This document shows, piece by piece, positions 49,532-56,819 of a DNA stretch of 64,000 nt (its first letter is position 1; the number at the start of each line of letters is the position of its first letter). Below the pieces are notes generated by a model. It saw only the letters and a list, made by a program, of their open reading frames with translations, was not told the origin of the DNA and ran no database searches. The translations under genes were made by a program, and so were the position numbers. The DNA is from Nannocystis pusilla (GTDB lineage Bacteria; Myxococcota_A; Polyangia; Nannocystales; Nannocystaceae). The stretch lies in NCBI RefSeq assembly GCF_051105105.1, contig NZ_CP185339.1. The stretch is one strand, 5' to 3'.

Positions 49532-50587
49532 TTGACGAGAGCAAACCCCACGGCCTCACGCGACATCGTCGTGATGGGGGCGTCCGCCGGCGGCCTCACC
49601 GCGTTGTTCGACATCGTGCGGGGGCTGCCGCGCGACTTCCCGGCCGCGGTGTTCGTGGCGATGCACATGTCACCGGACAACCCGGGCGTGCTGTCGGACC
49701 TGCTGGGGCGCGTCGCCGCCTTGCCGACCGCGCTGGCTGAAGATCGTCAGGCGATCGAGCGCGGCCGGATCTACATCGCCCGCCCCGATCACCACCTGCT
49801 GATCAAGCGGGCCCACGTGCGGGTCACTCGCGGCCCCAAGGAGAACGGGTTCCGCCCCGCGGTCGACCCGTTGTTCCGCAGCGCCGCGCTGGCCTACGGC
49901 GCGCGCGTCATCGGCGTCGTCCTCTCGGGCGGCCTCAACGACGGCACCGAGGGCCTGCTGCGGATCACCGAGGCGGGCGGCCTGGCGATCGCCCAGGACC
50001 CGGCCGAGGCCACCATCCCCAGCATGCCGCTCAGCGCCATCCAGAACGTCGAGGTCCACAGCGTGCTGAAGGCCGCCGCGATCCCCGAGGTGCTGAGCCA
50101 GCTGGTCGTGCAATCCGTGGACGACCCCAACGCGCTCGGCGCCCCCGAGGTCGAGGACACCGCCGAGACCGGGCGCGCCCTTCAGCAGAGCCAGCCGGTC
50201 GGCGCCCGCTCGCCGTACACCTGCCCCGAATGCGGCGGCGCGCTGTGGGAGCTGGCGGAGCACGACAAGCTGCTGAAGTTCCGCTGTCACGTCGGCCACG
50301 GCTTCACCGCCGAGGCGCTGCTGGCCGAGCAGGGCGCCAAGCTCGAGGGCGCGCTGTGGGGCGCCCTGCGGGCCCTCGAGGAGAACGCCGCCCTGTACCG
50401 CCAGCAAGCGGAGCGCACCGGCTCGGCCGGCTACCTCGCGCTGTCGCTACAGTACGGCAAGAGCGCCGCCGAGATCGAGGAGTACGCCAGCACCCTGCGG
50501 CCGCTGCTGCACCGGACCTCCGTGCAGTTGACCCCGCCCGCTCCGACTGCGCCGCCGCCCGAACCACCGGAAGGGATTGAGGACTGA
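49532..50587 (+). CDS. cheB: CheB-type methylesterase domain protein with C-terminal zinc-ribbon-like extension (no receiver domain)
   Basis: IVVMGASAGGLTALFDIV, IYIARPDHHLLI, VVLSGGLNDGTEGL. C-terminal YTCPECGGALWE...FRCHVGHGF. Confidence 0.75.
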   Translation: MTRANPTASRDIVVMGASAGGLTALFDIVRGLPRDFPAAVFVAMHMSPDNPGVLSDLLGRVAALPTALAEDRQAIERGRIYIARPDHHLLIKRAHVRVTRGPKENGFRPAVDPLFRSAALAYGARVIGVVLSGGLNDGTEGLLRITEAGGLAIAQDPAEATIPSMPLSAIQNVEVHSVLKAAAIPEVLSQLVVQSVDDPNALGAPEVEDTAETGRALQQSQPVGARSPYTCPECGGALWELAEHDKLLKFRCHVGHGFTAEALLAEQGAKLEGALWGALRALEENAALYRQQAERTGSAGYLALSLQYGKSAAEIEEYASTLRPLLHRTSVQLTPPAPTAPPPEPPEGIED

Positions 50588-50638
50588 CCGGCCCTCTCGT
50601 CGCCGGCTCGGCCGCTCGATTACGCTGTACCTGTCATC

Positions 50639-53600
50639 ATGCCCTCCACTCCGACCTCGCCTCTCCAGCCCGATACCACCGCCGTCGAGGCCGTCGACGA
50701 GAGCGAGGACGACGCGCCGGCCGACACGAGCCGCCGCGCCGGGCTCTCGCTGGTCGTCGTCATCGGCGCGTCCGCGGGCGGGCTGGAGGCCTTCACCGAC
50801 ATCCTCGACGCGCTCCCGGCCGACCTCGGCGTCGCCTTCGTGTACATGGCCCATCAGGCCAGCGGCCGCGACAGCGCCCTGGGCGACATCTTGCACGTGC
50901 ACACGTCGATGCCGATCGTCCTCGTCAAGGACGAGGTCCCGCTCGAGCCCGACCATCTCTACCTCGCCCCGCCCGGCATCCAGCTGACCGTCGCTGAGCT
51001 GCGCCTGGTCCCCGCCCCGCGCCCGGAGGACCGCACGCAGTACACCCCGATCGACGTGCTCATGGCCTCGCTGGCCAAGGAGCTCGAGACCTGCGCCGTC
51101 GGGGTGGTCCTGTCGGGCTCGGGCGTCGACGGCTCGGCGGGCCTGCGCGAGATCAAGGGCGTCGGCGGCATCACCATCGTCCAGGACCCCGAGACCGCCC
51201 GCTACGACAGCATGCCGCGCGCCGCCATCGCCACCGGCAGCGTCGACCTCGTGCTGCCCCCCGCGCGGATCGCCGAGGAGCTGCAGCGGATCGGCCGTCA
51301 CCCCTACGTGCGCTCCGCGTCCTCGCGGCGCCCCGGCGACGAGCTCGTCATCCACCAGGAGCAGCTGCACCGCATCTTCACCATGCTGCGCAACGCCAGC
51401 GGCGTCGACTTCACCCACTACAAGCCGCCGACGATCCGGCGCCGGCTGCGGCGGCGCATGGTCCTGCACAAGCTCGACAGCGTGGAGCAGTACATCAAGT
51501 ACATGCGCGAGAACCCCGAGGAGGTCGCCAAGCTCTACCAGGACCTCCTGATCCACGTGACCCGGTTCTTCCGCGACCCGGACTCGTTCCGGGCCCTCGC
51601 CTCCGAGGTGTTCCCGCAGATCATGCAGCAGCGGCGCGGCCTGGCGCCGATCCGCCTGTGGCTGCCGGGCTGCTCGACCGGCGAGGAGGCCTACTCGGTG
51701 GCCATCGCCCTGATCGAGTTCCTCGGCGAGGAGTCGAGCGCGGTGCCGGTGCAGATCTTCGCCACCAACGTCAGCGAGACGGCGATCGAGCACGCGCGCA
51801 ACGGCCTGTACGCCGACAGCATCGCCGCCGACCTCTCGCCCGAGCGGCTGCGCCGGTTCTTCACCAAGACCGACGGCAAGTACCGGATCGCCAAGGTCGT
51901 GCGCGACCTGTGCGTGTTCGCCCGCCAGGAACGTCACCCGCGACCCGCCGTTCTCCAAGCTCGACCTCATCCTCTGCCGCAACGTGCTCATCTACATGGG
52001 CGCGGTGCTGCAGCGCAAGCTGATGACCGTCTTCCACTACGCGCTCAAGCCGTCCGGATTTTTGATGCTCGGCGGCGCCGAGACCGTCGGGGCCCAGGCC
52101 GACCTGTTCGCGGTCATCGACAAGAAGCACCGGATCTTCGTCAAGCGACCGATCGAGACCCCCTCCAGCTTCCAGATCCCCGTCGAATACACCCCCAGTC
52201 GCTCACCCCACCGCGGCGCGCGCTTGCCCACCGAGATGCACACGCCCCCCTCTTTCCAGAACGAGGCCAATCGCCTGGTCCTCGATCGCTACGGGCCGCC
52301 GGGCGTGATCGTCGACGAGAACTTCCAGATCATCCAGTTTCGCGGCAAGACCGGCTTCTACCTCGAGCCCGCGCCCGGCGACGCCGCCCAGAGCCTCAAC
52401 CTGCTCAAGATGGCCCGCGAGGGCCTGCTCCACGGCCTCCAGACCGCGCTCTACGGCGCCCGCAAGTCCGACAAGCCGGTCCACAAGCAGGGCCTCCGGG
52501 TCACGCACAACGGCACCCACCACGAGCTCGACCTCCACGTCATCCCGCTGGCGGTGCCCGGCGAGGAGCGCCACTTCCTGGTCCTGTTCGAGGAGGCCGG
52601 GAGCGTCGGCGAGGCGGCGCCCGAGGTCGCCCTGTCCCCGCCGCAGCAGCCCTCGTCGGACGACGAGCGGGTCAAGCAGTTGCAAGAGGAGCTCGCGGCC
52701 AGCCGCGAGTACCTGCAGTCGATCATCCAGGACCTCGAGGCCGCCAACGAGGAGCTGCAGTCGGCCAACGAGGAGATCCTGTCGAGCAACGAGGAGCTGC
52801 AGAGCACCAACGAGGAGCTCGACACCGCCAAGGAGGAGCTGCAGAGCACCAACGAGGAGCTCAACACCGTCAACGAGGAGCTCCACGGCCGCAACGAGGA
52901 GCTGTCGCGGGTCAACAGCGACCTCGTCAACCTGCTCGGCTGCGTCGAGATCGCCATCGTCATCGTCGGCTCCGACCTCAGCATCCGCCGCTTCACGCCG
53001 ATGGCCGAGAAGGTGCTCAACCTGATCCCGACCGACATCGGCCGCCCGATCAGCCAGATCAAGCCCAACATCGAGTGCCCGGGCCTCGAGAAGATGATCG
53101 TCCGGGTCATCGACACCGTGACGATCCAGGAGATGAACGTCCGCGACAGCGAGGGCAACTGGTACGCGCTGCGGATCCGCCCCTACAAGAACGTCGAGAA
53201 CCGGATCGACGGCGCCGTCCTGGCGCTGTTCGACATCGCCAGCCGCCGCCACGAGCTCGAGCTCCGCCAGGCCCGCGACGGCACCCGCGCCATCGTCGAG
53301 GTCGTGCGTCAGCCGCTCGTCGTGCTCGACGGCCACCTGCGCGTCCAGGCCATCAACCGCGCCTTCACCGAGATGTTCGGCCTGTCCAACGACGACGTCC
53401 TGCACCGCCACGTCTACGACCTCGGCGGCGGCACCTGGGACGCCCCGCCGCTGCACCGCCTGCTCGACGACGTCCTGCCCCGCCAGGGCCGCTGCGCCGG
53501 CTTCCGCGTCGAGCACGAGTTCGTGCGCGGCGAGCCGATGCAGCTCGCCGTCGACGCCGCCCGCATCGACGGCGGCGACCCGGGCACGGCCCTCGTCGTG

Positions 53601-56057: not shown

Positions 56058-56133
56058 GCAAGCTTCGGTGAACACCGTACCCGATCGACCATGAAGTTCA
56101 AGCACGTGTCCGCTCCTCTCGTGACATGGACCC

Positions 56134-56819
56134 TCAGCGACCCGGAAGCAACCCGTGTTCGACCGCGTAGCGGGTCAGCTCGGCGACGGTGCGGAGGCCC
56201 AGCACTCGCATGAGTCGCGCCTTGTGAAACTCGACCGTCTTGCGCGAGATGCCGAGGATGTCGCCGATCTCGCGGGCCGGCCGGCCCTCTGCGACCAGCT
56301 GCAGCACCTCGCGCTGGCGCGACGACAGCTCGCCCCCGGCCAGCCCCTCTTCGAGCGCGCCGGGTCGCGGCTCGTAGACCAGCCCCGGCGACACGTACGT
56401 GCCGCCGGCCAGCACCTTGCGGATCGCCACCAGCAGCTCCGACGAGGCGGCCGTCTTCACCACGTAGCCGTGCGCCCCGGCGCGGAACGCCTCCTGCACG
56501 TAATCAGGCTCGGCGTGGACCGTGACGAAGATGATCCGCCCCCGCGGACACGCGCGCTGCAGCTGGCGCACCGCGTCGAAGCCGTTGAGCAGCGGCATCG
56601 TCACGTCGACGAGCACCACGTCGGGTTGACATTGTTCGGCCGCGGCGACGAGCGCGCGGCCGTCGGCCACCGCCCCCACGATCTCGAGCTCGGCCGCCAA
56701 CAAGCGCACCAGGCCCTCACGGACCAGCGTGTGGTCGTCGGCCAAAAGCACCCGCGGGCGCGCCCGCGAGGGGGATGCGTCCGCGCCAACGTCCGCGTGA
56801 CTGGCTGCGTCCTCGTTCA
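56134..56819 (-). CDS. NarL/FixJ-family response regulator (REC + LuxR HTH)
   Basis: VLLADDHTLVREG...VVLVDVTMPLLNG...HGYVVK. LSSRQREVLQLVAEGRPAREIGDILGISRKTVEFHKARL. GTG start inferred; the upstream 1.5 kb of ORF 56134..58404 is repeat DNA, not coding. Confidence 0.7.

What the first reader, a model, noticed from the sequence alone, without database searches (positions are those of the whole stretch)
49532..56819. MCP-less methylation module: stand-alone CheB, CheB-CheR-PAS-histidine kinase megaprotein and two NarL-type regulators
This locus combines a receiver-less CheB with a Zn-ribbon tail and a single 1539-aa protein carrying CheB, CheR, a coiled coil, two PAS domains and a HisKA_3/HATPase kinase. 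Two LuxR-type response regulators lie immediately downstream on the opposite strand. No MCP, CheA, CheW or CheY is present. The coiled coil between CheR and the PAS domains is built from at least 8 heptads, each carrying an E-E pair (ANEELQS ANEEILS SNEELQS TNEELDT AKEELQS TNEELNT VNEELHG RNEELSR). That layout matches the consensus methyl-accepting Glu-Glu sites of chemoreceptors. My inference is that the kinase carries its own methyl-acceptor segment, which is written and erased by its fused CheR/CheB domains, giving adaptation-like control of a transcriptional two-component output. Domain fusions of this kind are annotated in databases, but the substrate and logic of the system are, as far as I know, uncharacterised.
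Basis: partly seen in the sequence, partly recalled or inferred. Interest (0 to 1): 0.75.

Follow-up and report, generated by a model that had tools for sequence, protein, structure and literature searches.

The report
Known CheB–CheR coiled-coil signalling module
This Nannocystis locus is an ordinary, split member of a widespread but never experimentally tested family in which chemotaxis-type methylation enzymes are fused to an extremely conserved glutamate-rich coiled coil and feed a normal transcriptional two-component system; the "1539-aa megaprotein" is an artefact of a one-base insertion.

Summary
The domains, the eight NEEL heptads and the two NarL-type regulators are real. The single 1539-aa protein is not. 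That ORF stays open only because the DNA is 72% G+C, and its middle third is out-of-frame Arg/Pro-rich sequence. The true layout has five genes: a receiver-less CheB (351 aa); a CheB-CheR-coiled coil-PAS_10-PAS_4 protein (1008 aa, broken here by one extra A at 51930); a separate PAS-HisKA_3 kinase (531 aa, its GTG start overlapping the upstream TGA stop); and two regulators on the opposite strand. Nannocystis orthologues and NCBI's own kinase record for this genome confirm this layout.

The extra A lies in a GACGTC motif. Two other frameshifts and several G-to-A changes in the window fall on the same motif, so it is probably an assembly artefact.

The idea that the coiled coil accepts methyl groups was published in 2010 as the "methyl-accepting coiled-coil" (MAC1/MAC2) proteins, which a 2022 preprint still describes as experimentally uncharacterised. 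My data support it indirectly. The coiled coil is the most conserved part of the protein, and its Glu-Glu pairs are essentially invariant across phyla. It is a single helix and matches only half of the MCP methylation consensus. This is a new member of a known kind, of modest interest.

The parts
49532..50587 (+). Stand-alone, receiver-less CheB methylesterase (351 aa, TTG start) with a C-terminal Cys3-His (CPECGG...RCHVGH) plus helical tail
   Evidence: Pfam CheB_methylest aa 13-187, E=1e-52, no family on the tail. Exact match to NCBI WP_434416010.1 'chemotaxis protein CheB [Nannocystis pusilla]'. The Ser164/His190/Asp286 triad of Salmonella CheB aligns to S/H/D. A CheB with this tail lies next to a cheBR gene in 8 of 81 related loci.
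50639..53666 (+). cheBR gene: CheB (nt 50756-51283), CheR_N (51362-51517), CheR (51557-52130), unannotated alpha/beta domain (~52254-52595), long coiled-coil helix (52662-52943), PAS_10 (52926-53237), PAS_4 (53298-53624). It encodes 1008 aa once one A at 51930/51931 is removed.
   Evidence: Pfam on the frame-corrected protein. It is 92-93% identical over 100% of its length to 1009-1011 aa Nannocystis proteins. GC3 frame plot. AlphaFold2 model of orthologue P0002, mean pLDDT 83.7.
51929..51935 (+). Frameshift site GA[A]CGTC inside the CheR domain (ARQ-D-VTRDPPF). It is a one-base insertion relative to orthologues and probably an assembly artefact.
   Evidence: DNA alignment with N. pusilla L001. 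The same GACGTC-to-GAACGTC change causes frameshifts at 15639 and 16378. Of 12 alignable GACGTC sites, 6 show G-to-A, its reverse-complement equivalent, or +A.
52743..52910 (+). Eight tandem heptads with Glu-Glu pairs (ANEELQS ANEEILS SNEELQS TNEELDT AKEELQS TNEELNT VNEELHG RNEELSR). This is the candidate methyl-acceptor segment.
   Evidence: Direct translation. Mean top-residue frequency is 0.94, against 0.69 for CheB and 0.76 for CheR. The EE pairs of heptads 1-6 are kept in 244-260 of 260 unique segments. There are 5 matches to [EQ][EQ]xx[ASTG][ASTG], against 0.30 expected from shuffles.
53663..55258 (+). Separate sensor kinase (531 aa): N-terminal helix, PAS, PAS_3, HisKA_3, HATPase_c. Its GTG start overlaps the cheBR TGA stop (GTGA).
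   Evidence: Sequence at the junction. Pfam. Exact match to NCBI WP_434428171.1 of this genome, with 531-aa orthologues in other Nannocystis. Called as a separate gene with a 4-nt overlap in L001.
55416..56057 (-). RR1: NarL/LuxR-type regulator (REC+GerE) with Glu in place of the phospho-acceptor Asp (ALELELP)
   Evidence: Pfam. Comparison with RR2 and with the N. punicea orthologue, which also has Glu.
56134..56880 (-). RR2: canonical NarL/LuxR-type response regulator (REC with LVDVTMP acceptor, plus GerE). It is the likely cognate of the HisKA_3 kinase. The start codon is uncertain.
   Evidence: Pfam. The 248-aa orthologue is called in L001. RR2-like regulators (46-52% identical) lie directly downstream of HisKA_3-type cheBR fusions in L056, L068 and L074.

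Best explanation
The locus is a split member of the CheB/CheR-fusion family, also called the methyl-accepting coiled-coil or MAC1 family, from Nannocystis pusilla.

Gene structure (shown):
- cheB: 351 aa, no receiver domain, with a Cys3-His tail.
- cheBR: 1008 aa, CheB-CheR-alpha/beta domain-92-residue helix-PAS_10-PAS_4.
- A translationally coupled PAS-PAS-HisKA_3-HATPase kinase of 531 aa.
- Two NarL-type regulators, transcribed convergently.

The 1539-aa ORF results from one extra A in the CheR domain. That insertion puts the 5' part of cheBR in the kinase's frame, and this frame happens to be stop-free in 72% G+C DNA. The insertion is probably an assembly error at a GACGTC motif.

Mechanism (inferred, not shown):
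1. The CheBR protein dimerises through the long helix.
2. Its CheR domain methylates, and its CheB domain (helped or replaced by the stand-alone CheB) demethylates, the heptad-spaced Glu-Glu pairs on that helix.
3. Neutralising these charges changes the packing of the coiled coil and of the PAS_10/PAS_4 domains that follow it.
4. This state is passed on to the kinase. In about 40% of relatives the kinase is fused in cis. Here it is a separate, co-translated partner.
5. The kinase phosphorylates RR2, and transcription changes. RR1, which has Glu at the acceptor site, would act without phosphorylation.
For: Gene structure:
- Three-frame translations and the GTGA overlap.
- The GC3 frame plot.
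- Orthologues of 1006-1019 aa without a kinase.
- Gene calls at the orthologous locus.
- The one-base insertion relative to the orthologue.
- The NCBI 531-aa kinase from this genome, and the absence of the 1539-aa product from the collection.

Assembly artefact:
- Three frameshifts at GAACGTC, each inside a conserved domain.
- A biased G-to-A change at GACGTC sites.
- The only real violation of 106 invariant columns is D381N, which is also at a GACGTC site.

Coiled coil as substrate or recognition surface:
- It is the most conserved segment, with 83% of columns at least 90% conserved, against 22% in CheB and 47% in CheR.
- N-E-E-L is near-invariant in six heptads across 260 unique segments.
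- The exact peptides ELQSANEE and QSTNEELD occur in more than 600 stretches of GTDB species genomes from many phyla, and 596 of the 600 reported lie in relatives of the query.
- The EE pairs are heptad-spaced and enriched for EExx[AST][AST].
- The only other EEL-heptad run in the window lies in a CHASE3-GAF kinase fused or adjacent to CheR and CheB.
- Catalytic motifs are intact in both CheB proteins and in CheR.

Coupling to a kinase:
- 31 of 33 long-form homologues carry HATPase_c in the same ORF.
- 14 of the 28 shorter-form loci with a scorable downstream ORF (of 42 shorter-form loci) have a kinase immediately downstream.

Literature:
- The MAC1/MAC2 concept, and the report that about 20% of species with MAC systems have no other chemotaxis system.
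Against: - There is no experimental evidence of methylation for any member of the family.
- The heptads never match the full MCP consensus [ASTG][ASTG]xx[EQ][EQ]xx[ASTG][ASTG] (0 matches).
- AlphaFold2 predicts one continuous helix, so a parallel coiled coil rather than the antiparallel four-helix bundle that canonical CheR and CheB act on.
- The Glu positions show almost no E/Q alternation, unlike many MCP sites.
- Extreme conservation could equally reflect a protein-protein docking surface.
- The fused CheB loses its catalytic Ser in 16 of 114 aligned sequences.
- How a separate CheBR protein would control the kinase is not shown.
- If the frameshift and D381N are real, the CheR domain is dead in this strain.
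- I could not read Wuichet & Zhulin 2010 or run the MiST MAC1 profile, so the equation with MAC1 rests on how later papers describe it.
Confidence: 0.6

Rival explanations
1. The coiled coil is only a dimerisation or signalling helix. The CheR and CheB domains act in trans on conventional chemoreceptors encoded elsewhere in the 12-Mb genome, and the PAS domains regulate enzyme activity.
For: The segment is predicted as a single long helix leading into a PAS domain, as in many sensor proteins. The full MCP methylation consensus is not matched. [quoted passage not shown] From general knowledge, myxobacteria carry several Che-like clusters with MCPs.
Against: A mere dimerisation helix does not need near-invariant solvent-exposed N, E, E, Q, S and T across phyla, and it would not be expected to be more conserved than the catalytic domains. 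About 20% of species with MAC systems, and whole proteome clusters, lack any other chemotaxis system. No MCP, CheA or CheW lies in the 64-kb window. EEL heptads recur in the second CheR/CheB-linked kinase.
Confidence: 0.2
2. The gene is a true pseudogene in this strain. The +1 frameshift and the D381N change in the SAM-binding ATD motif are real, so the methylation module is inactive. At most a truncated CheB-half-CheR protein, or an aberrant read-through fusion to the kinase, is made.
For: The insertion is present in the window sequence. Both lesions hit the CheR domain. Neither the corrected nor the 1539-aa product is in the protein collection, whereas the flanking CheB and kinase of this genome are. 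This is consistent with NCBI flagging the gene as frameshifted.
Against: Identical GACGTC-to-GAACGTC insertions break two other signalling domains, at 15639 and 16378. G-to-A changes are concentrated at GACGTC sites. That pattern points to systematic error, not independent decay. Apart from D381N (the apparent D435N comes from which A was deleted), the gene breaks none of the 106 invariant columns and only 1 of 202 near-invariant ones. It also keeps a GC3 of 0.92-0.98.
Confidence: 0.15
3. The fused CheR and CheB modify a different protein of the system, such as the partner kinase or a regulator. The conserved coiled coil is the docking platform rather than the substrate.
For: Extreme surface conservation fits a docking interface as well as a substrate. 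The kinase is a separate, translationally coupled protein here.
Against: The kinase N-terminal helix, the rest of the kinase and the regulators carry no comparable EE-heptad run (six-frame search). In homologues the output varies (HisKA, HisKA_2/HWE, HisKA_3, GGDEF-EAL, or none) while the coiled coil stays constant, so the constant partner of CheR and CheB is the coiled coil itself.
Confidence: 0.05

Closest known systems
MAC1 (methyl-accepting coiled-coil protein, class 1; Wuichet & Zhulin 2010, profiles in MiST3); KEGG-style name 'two-component system, chemotaxis family, CheB/CheR fusion protein'
   Same: CheB and CheR domains lie in one polypeptide, followed by a glutamate-rich coiled coil and PAS domains, and are linked to a histidine kinase. 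There is no MCP, CheA or CheW. Close homologues carry the JGI name 'CheB/CheR fusion protein'. Of 33 long-form relatives, 31 have the kinase fused.
   Different: Here the kinase is a separate gene with a 4-nt overlap, and it is of the HisKA_3/NarL type. An extra stand-alone CheB with a Cys3-His tail precedes the fusion, as in only 8 of 81 loci. One of the two regulators lacks the acceptor Asp. Membership by the MiST profile could not be tested.
Chemoreceptor (MCP) adaptation region with CheR/CheB in bacterial chemotaxis
   Same: The enzyme families are the same and their catalytic motifs are intact. Glu-Glu pairs are spaced seven residues apart on a helix, followed by small residues (EExx[AST][AST]).
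   Different: There is no MCPsignal domain or hairpin tip. The segment is a single predicted helix rather than an antiparallel four-helix bundle. The N-terminal half of the consensus is offset by one residue. There is no E/Q alternation, CheB has no receiver domain, and the output is a transcriptional two-component system rather than CheA/CheY.
MAC2-type clusters: CHASE3/GAF hybrid kinase plus CheR, CheB and a second hybrid kinase (for example the BmsA cluster of Pseudomonas)
   Same: Both have a kinase with an EEL-heptad coiled coil just before its phospho-acceptor or sensor modules, associated with CheR and a receiver-less CheB. One such cluster lies at 13.6-20.4 kb of this window.
   Different: In that cluster the coiled coil sits in the kinase itself, directly upstream of HisKA. 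CheR and CheB are at the C-terminus or separate, not N-terminal. The heptads are QxEEL and fewer in number.
NarX/NarL-type (HisKA_3 with REC-GerE) two-component systems
   Same: The kinase core (HisKA_3 + HATPase_c) and RR2 (REC + GerE) are ordinary members by Pfam.
   Different: The input is cytoplasmic PAS domains plus a partner protein that carries methylation enzymes. No NCBIfam equivalog cut-off is reached.

Membership tests
MAC1 / CheB-CheR fusion protein | CheB methylesterase and CheR methyltransferase domains in one polypeptide | tested here: met
   Pfam on the frame-corrected 1008-aa protein: CheB_methylest 1.6e-50, CheR_N 1.7e-15, CheR 2.9e-49. Orthologues are named CheB/CheR fusion protein.
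MAC1 / CheB-CheR fusion protein | Coiled-coil segment with chemoreceptor-like methyl-acceptor sites | tested here: inconclusive
   A 92-residue helix carries eight heptad-spaced EE pairs. There are 5 matches to the half consensus EExx[ASTG][ASTG] against 0.30 expected, but 0 matches to the full 10-residue MCP consensus. Conservation is extreme.
MAC1 / CheB-CheR fusion protein | Kinase function in the same protein | tested here: not met
   The kinase is a separate 531-aa gene with a GTGA overlap. It is fused in 31 of 33 long-form homologues, so this locus is a split variant.
MAC1 / CheB-CheR fusion protein | Score above threshold against the MiST3 MAC1 profile HMM | not testable with these tools
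   The profile is not in Pfam, NCBIfam or the other libraries available. PMC6943060 states that no Pfam model exists.
MAC1 / CheB-CheR fusion protein | The coiled coil actually accepts methyl groups | not testable with these tools
   This needs biochemistry. The literature says MAC proteins are experimentally uncharacterised.
Methyl-accepting chemotaxis protein (MCP) | MCPsignal domain with the conserved hairpin tip that binds CheA/CheW | tested here: not met
   No MCPsignal hit in any ORF scanned. No tip motif in six frames.
Methyl-accepting chemotaxis protein (MCP) | Methylation helices forming an antiparallel helical hairpin | tested here: not met
   AlphaFold2 gives one uninterrupted helix, residues 678-769, running into PAS_10.
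Canonical CheB response regulator | N-terminal receiver domain controlling the esterase | tested here: not met
   Neither CheB has a Response_reg domain.
Canonical CheB response regulator | Ser-His-Asp catalytic triad | tested here: met
   The stand-alone CheB aligns S/H/D to Ser164/His190/Asp286 of 1a2o. The fused CheB has S, H and D at the equivalent columns, which are 86%, 91% and 98% conserved in the family.
CheR methyltransferase | SAM-binding and catalytic motifs (FFR, GCSTGEE, ATD, CRNVLIY) | tested here: inconclusive
   All motifs are invariant in 113 homologues. The window copy has ATN instead of ATD, plus the frameshift. Both changes lie at GACGTC sites and are probably sequence errors.
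NarL-type two-component system | HisKA_3 + HATPase_c kinase, and a REC-GerE regulator with a phospho-acceptor Asp | tested here: met
   Kinase and RR2 by Pfam. RR2 has LVDVTMP. RR1 has Glu at that position (ALELELP), also in N. punicea, so RR1 alone does not meet this feature.

The most novel reading that the evidence does not exclude
The near-invariant run of six to eight N-E-E-L heptads is a multi-site methylation register, written by the fused CheR and erased by two receiver-less CheBs. This would give an ordinary transcriptional two-component system a graded, chemotaxis-like memory without MCP, CheA or CheW. The register sits on a protein separate from the kinase, so it would act as a diffusible 'adaptation subunit'. 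The accessory CheB with the Cys3-His tail would supply a second, independently regulated eraser.
Probability: 0.35. Interest if true: 0.6.

Novelty: new member of a known kind. Interest (0 to 1): 0.3.

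Why it matters
If the coiled coil is shown to be methylated, it would be the first experimentally confirmed non-MCP substrate of CheR/CheB-type enzymes in this family. 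It would show that methylation-based adaptation operates in transcriptional two-component signalling. It would also bear on the proposal that MAC proteins are an evolutionary link between two-component and chemotaxis systems.

The family is very large. The coiled coil plus PAS_10 module matches 13,319 50%-identity clusters at E<=1e-10. It is spread over many phyla, so one decisive experiment would annotate thousands of genes.

For this particular locus the practical value is a correction. The megaprotein is an artefact, and the assembly appears to carry systematic errors at GACGTC sites that create false frameshifts.

Tried and rejected
1. I first read the two frame switches as compensating frameshifts in one gene. 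I rejected this because the second switch is a GTGA start/stop overlap, and because orthologues and NCBI call two genes.
2. I looked up the 1539-aa ORF by exact sequence. It is not in the collection.
3. I tried to fetch the source contig through the exact CheB and kinase proteins. Neither is on record, so I could not check directly whether the insertion is in the deposited record.
4. Full-text searches for 'CheBR' and 'CheB-CheR fusion' returned noise or only passing mentions.
5. Wuichet & Zhulin 2010 is not held, either by DOI or as PMC3401578. The MAC definition is therefore taken second-hand.
6. I looked for E/Q alternation at the Glu pairs as a deamidation signature. It is essentially absent, at most 9 of 260 at any central site.
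7. PDB sequence and fold searches found only isolated CheR, CheB and PAS structures, and no solved fusion or MAC protein.
8. A search with the CheB Cys3-His tail returned only short metagenomic CheB fragments.
9. Several apparent 'coiled coil-PAS_10-kinase without CheBR' hits are N-terminally truncated gene calls that start inside the alpha/beta domain. One, P0172, looks genuine, because an unrelated gene lies upstream. L082 is ambiguous.
10. NCBIfam gave no specific family above cut-off. The extra Pfam accessions listed for some homologues were not reproduced at E<=0.001.

Full report
**What is in the sequence**

The window is about 72% G+C. ORF 50639-55258 is indeed open for 1539 codons. Its translation is CheB-like and CheR-like only up to "...VFARQ". 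It then runs for about 580 residues of Arg/Pro/Ala-rich sequence, and returns to PAS, HisKA_3 and HATPase sequence only near residue 1010.

The frame shifted by +1 (ORF 51984-53666) holds the missing part. This covers the second half of CheR, the NEEL heptads and two PAS domains, and it ends in TGA at 53664-53666. A GC3 frame plot independently puts the coding frame in phase 2 up to ~51.9 kb, in phase 0 from 51.9 to 53.7 kb, and in phase 2 again to 55.3 kb.

**The two frame switches are different things**

The first switch is a single extra base. The window reads CAG GAA CGT CAC C, where N. pusilla GCA_026626665.1 reads CAG GAC GTC ACC. Removing one A restores the invariant ARQDVTRDPPFS motif of CheR.

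The second switch is a gene boundary. A GTG at 53663 overlaps the TGA stop as GTGA.

Joining the two reading frames at the insertion site gives a 1008-aa protein. I deleted the G rather than one A, so residue 431 reads N instead of the orthologues' D. Its domains are CheB_methylest, CheR_N, CheR, PAS_10 and PAS_4. The downstream gene encodes a 531-aa PAS-PAS_3-HisKA_3-HATPase_c kinase.

- The corrected protein is 92-93% identical over its full length to 1009-1011 aa Nannocystis proteins. The five best hits are all 1006-1019 aa and lack kinase domains.
- At the orthologous N. pusilla locus the genes are called as CheB (351 aa), CheB/CheR-PAS (1009 aa), a kinase (531 aa, 4-nt overlap) and regulators on the opposite strand.
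- The window's CheB and 531-aa kinase are exact NCBI proteins of an N. pusilla genome with a 12.2-Mb contig. The 1539-aa sequence is not in the collection.

The megaprotein is therefore an artefact. One inserted base puts the 5' part of cheBR in the kinase's frame, and that frame happens to be stop-free.

**Is the frameshift real?**

Probably not.

- Two further frameshifts in the window, at 15639 and 16378, are the same GACGTC-to-GAACGTC change. One splits a kinase between HisKA and HATPase_c, the other splits a receiver domain. Deleting the extra A in each restores [10 protein letters not shown] and [11 protein letters not shown] and fuses the pieces into one long ORF.
- A fourth frameshift lies in an HATPase_c domain near 19.68 kb. 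By my reading of the sequence, it is an extra G in GAGCTC.
- The corrected CheBR breaks only one of 106 family-invariant columns through a real base difference. This is D381N, in the SAM-binding ATD motif, and it is GACGTC-to-AACGTC.
- Of 12 GACGTC sites of the N. pusilla locus that align to the window, 5 are kept, 4 read AACGTC, 1 reads GACGTT (the reverse-complement equivalent) and 1 reads GAACGTC.

This motif-specific bias points to systematic base-calling error at a modified site rather than independent gene decay. I could not fetch the deposited contig to check.

**The rest of the locus**

- The stand-alone CheB has no receiver domain. It keeps the Ser164/His190/Asp286 triad and ends in a CPECGG...RCHVGH segment plus helices with no Pfam or NCBIfam family.
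- A CheB with this tail lies next to a cheBR gene in 8 of 81 related loci, from several phyla and in varying orientation. It is therefore a recurrent accessory, not a core part.
- RR2 is a canonical REC-GerE regulator. RR2-like proteins (46-52% identical) lie directly downstream of HisKA_3-type cheBR fusions in Acidobacteriota, so RR2 is the likely cognate.
- RR1 has Glu at the phospho-acceptor position, also in N. punicea.
- No MCPsignal, CheW or CheA domain occurs in any GC3-supported ORF of the window. No MCP tip motif occurs in six frames.

**The coiled coil**

The eight heptads are at nt 52743-52910.

In an alignment of 113 homologues (55-94% identical overall), this segment is the most conserved part of the protein:

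| Region | Mean top-residue frequency | Columns at least 90% conserved |
|---|---|---|
| Coiled-coil heptads | 0.94 | 83% |
| CheB | 0.69 | 22% |
| CheR | 0.76 | 47% |
| PAS_10 | 0.79 | 47% |
| PAS_4 | 0.47 | 5% |

- Across 260 unique coiled-coil segments, the Glu-Glu pairs of heptads 1-6 are kept in 244-260 sequences. These segments come from the nearest homologues and from 50%-identity cluster representatives. The flanking Asn/Lys and Leu are kept equally well, and Gln almost never replaces Glu.
- The exact peptides ELQSANEE and QSTNEELD occur in more than 600 stretches of GTDB species genomes. These span Acidobacteriota, Planctomycetota, Myxococcota, Gemmatimonadota, Bdellovibrionota, Proteobacteria, Bacteroidota, Verrucomicrobiota, NC10 and Nitrospirota. 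Of the 600 reported, 596 encode relatives of the query.
- The coiled coil plus PAS_10 module matches 13,319 50%-identity clusters at E<=1e-10.
- AlphaFold2 (pLDDT 83.7) gives one uninterrupted helix, residues 678-769, running into PAS_10. It also shows a confident, unannotated alpha/beta domain between CheR and the helix.
- The heptads match the C-terminal half of the chemoreceptor consensus five times, against 0.30 expected from shuffles. They never match the full ten-residue consensus.

Solvent-exposed positions this invariant are not expected of a mere dimerisation helix. They indicate a recognised surface, either a substrate or a docking site.

**Architecture in relatives**

Of 75 complete ORFs from different species, 33 are long, 22 are like this one and 20 stop after PAS_10.

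- Of the 33 long forms, 31 contain HATPase_c. The phospho-acceptor domain is HisKA in 16, HisKA_2/HWE in 7 and HisKA_3 in 7. Twelve add a receiver domain, and one carries GGDEF-EAL.
- A downstream ORF could be scored at 28 of the 42 shorter-form loci. In 14 of these it is a PAS-kinase, and in 2 it is GGDEF-EAL.

Nannocystis has the split form. The output module varies while the CheB-CheR-coiled coil-PAS_10 core stays constant. At least one kinase begins directly with the coiled coil and has an unrelated gene upstream (P0172).

**Comparison with what is known**

- A 2022 preprint (10.1101/2022.05.07.491037) describes MAC proteins as including apparent chemoreceptor and kinase domains. They either incorporate CheB- and CheR-related domains (MAC1) or are associated with them (MAC2).
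- I could not obtain the 2010 paper itself or run the MAC1 profile.

By architecture this locus is a MAC1-type system with the kinase split off.

The same window also holds a MAC2-like cluster at 13.6-20.4 kb. It consists of CHASE3-GAF, a coiled coil ([21 protein letters not shown]), HisKA, HATPase, receiver domains and CheR, followed by a receiver-less CheB and a hybrid kinase. Its coiled coil is the only other EEL-heptad run in six frames of the window. Related Pseudomonas clusters (BmsA) have genetic phenotypes in biofilm formation and motility (PMC8175716).

**Mechanism and verdict**

Shown:
- The gene structure.
- Intact catalytic motifs, apart from the suspect D381N.
- The extreme and phylogenetically broad conservation of the EE heptads.
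- Their exclusive association, within this window, with CheR/CheB-linked kinases.
- The physical coupling of the module to kinases in relatives.

Inferred:
- CheR methylates and the CheBs demethylate the heptad Glu residues.
- This alters coiled-coil and PAS conformation.
- The state is passed to the separate kinase and on to RR2.

The main rival is that the enzymes act in trans on distant MCPs, with the helix serving only as a structural or docking element. That cannot be excluded for an organism that very likely has MCPs elsewhere.

The finding is a real locus, with a wrong gene model and an already published, still untested hypothesis. It is a new member of a known kind, of modest interest.

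Noticed in passing
window 13605-20281 (+): A second MCP-less CheR/CheB module lies here. Removing one A at each of two GAACGTC sites gives a single ORF: CHASE3, TM, GAF, an EEL-heptad coiled coil ([21 protein letters not shown] at ~15207), HisKA, HATPase_c, receiver domains, CheR_N and CheR. It is followed by a receiver-less CheB (18212-18811) and a REC-HisKA-HATPase-REC hybrid kinase. This looks like the MAC2-type arrangement and resembles the Pseudomonas BmsA clusters.
   Followed up: partly
window 15639, 16378, 51929 (GAACGTC); 51767, 54683, 47510, 61493 (AACGTC); 42634 (GACGTT); ~19680: Apparent systematic sequence errors occur at GACGTC. Three frameshifts are +A insertions in this motif, each inside a conserved domain. 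Of 12 GACGTC sites of a related strain, 6 are changed to AACGTC, GACGTT or GAACGTC. A fourth frameshift in an HATPase_c domain looks like an extra G in GAGCTC. This suggests base-calling artefacts at a methylated palindromic motif in a long-read assembly. Restriction-site avoidance is a less likely alternative.
   Followed up: partly
window 55416-56057 (-): The NarL-type regulator RR1 has Glu in place of the phospho-acceptor Asp (ALELELP against LVDVTMP in RR2). This is conserved in N. punicea. It is an aspartate-less receiver that probably acts without phosphorylation. In N. pusilla GCA_026626665.1 the same gene is called in two pieces (68 aa and 130 aa).
   Followed up: partly
window ~52254-52595 (+); P0002 residues 543-655: A confidently predicted alpha/beta domain (pLDDT mostly above 90) lies between CheR and the coiled coil and has no Pfam match. 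It is moderately conserved (MAREGLL..., RHFLVLFE motifs). Many metagenomic gene calls start inside it.
   Followed up: no
alignment A2, column of P0002 Ser49: The catalytic Ser of the fused CheB domain is replaced by Ala, Gly or Asp in 16 of 114 sequences, and His76 is replaced in 10 of 114. The CheR motifs are invariant. This suggests that the fused esterase is dispensable or dead in some lineages. It may relate to the presence of the stand-alone tailed CheB.
   Followed up: no
L083 2584-5250 (P0172); L082 3-2329: The coiled coil-PAS_10-PAS-HisKA-HATPase(-REC) architecture can occur without a fused CheB-CheR. In L083 an unrelated FG-GAP gene lies upstream. In L082 the end of the alpha/beta domain is in another frame just upstream, which could be either a split gene or a frameshift.
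   Followed up: partly
window 26-38 kb (+): A sugar and envelope gene cluster lies here. It contains three GT9 heptosyltransferase-like genes, GT4 glycosyltransferases, a SIS domain, a PfkB-cytidylyltransferase (HldE-like) gene, a short-chain dehydrogenase and an endonuclease/exonuclease/phosphatase-family gene. It is unrelated to the finding.
   Followed up: no
window 22198-23922 (-); 20-1921 (+); 62489-63982 (+): Further signalling genes are present: a GAF-HisKA-HATPase kinase, a Ser/Thr protein kinase at the left edge, and a Fic-domain protein at the right edge.
   Followed up: no
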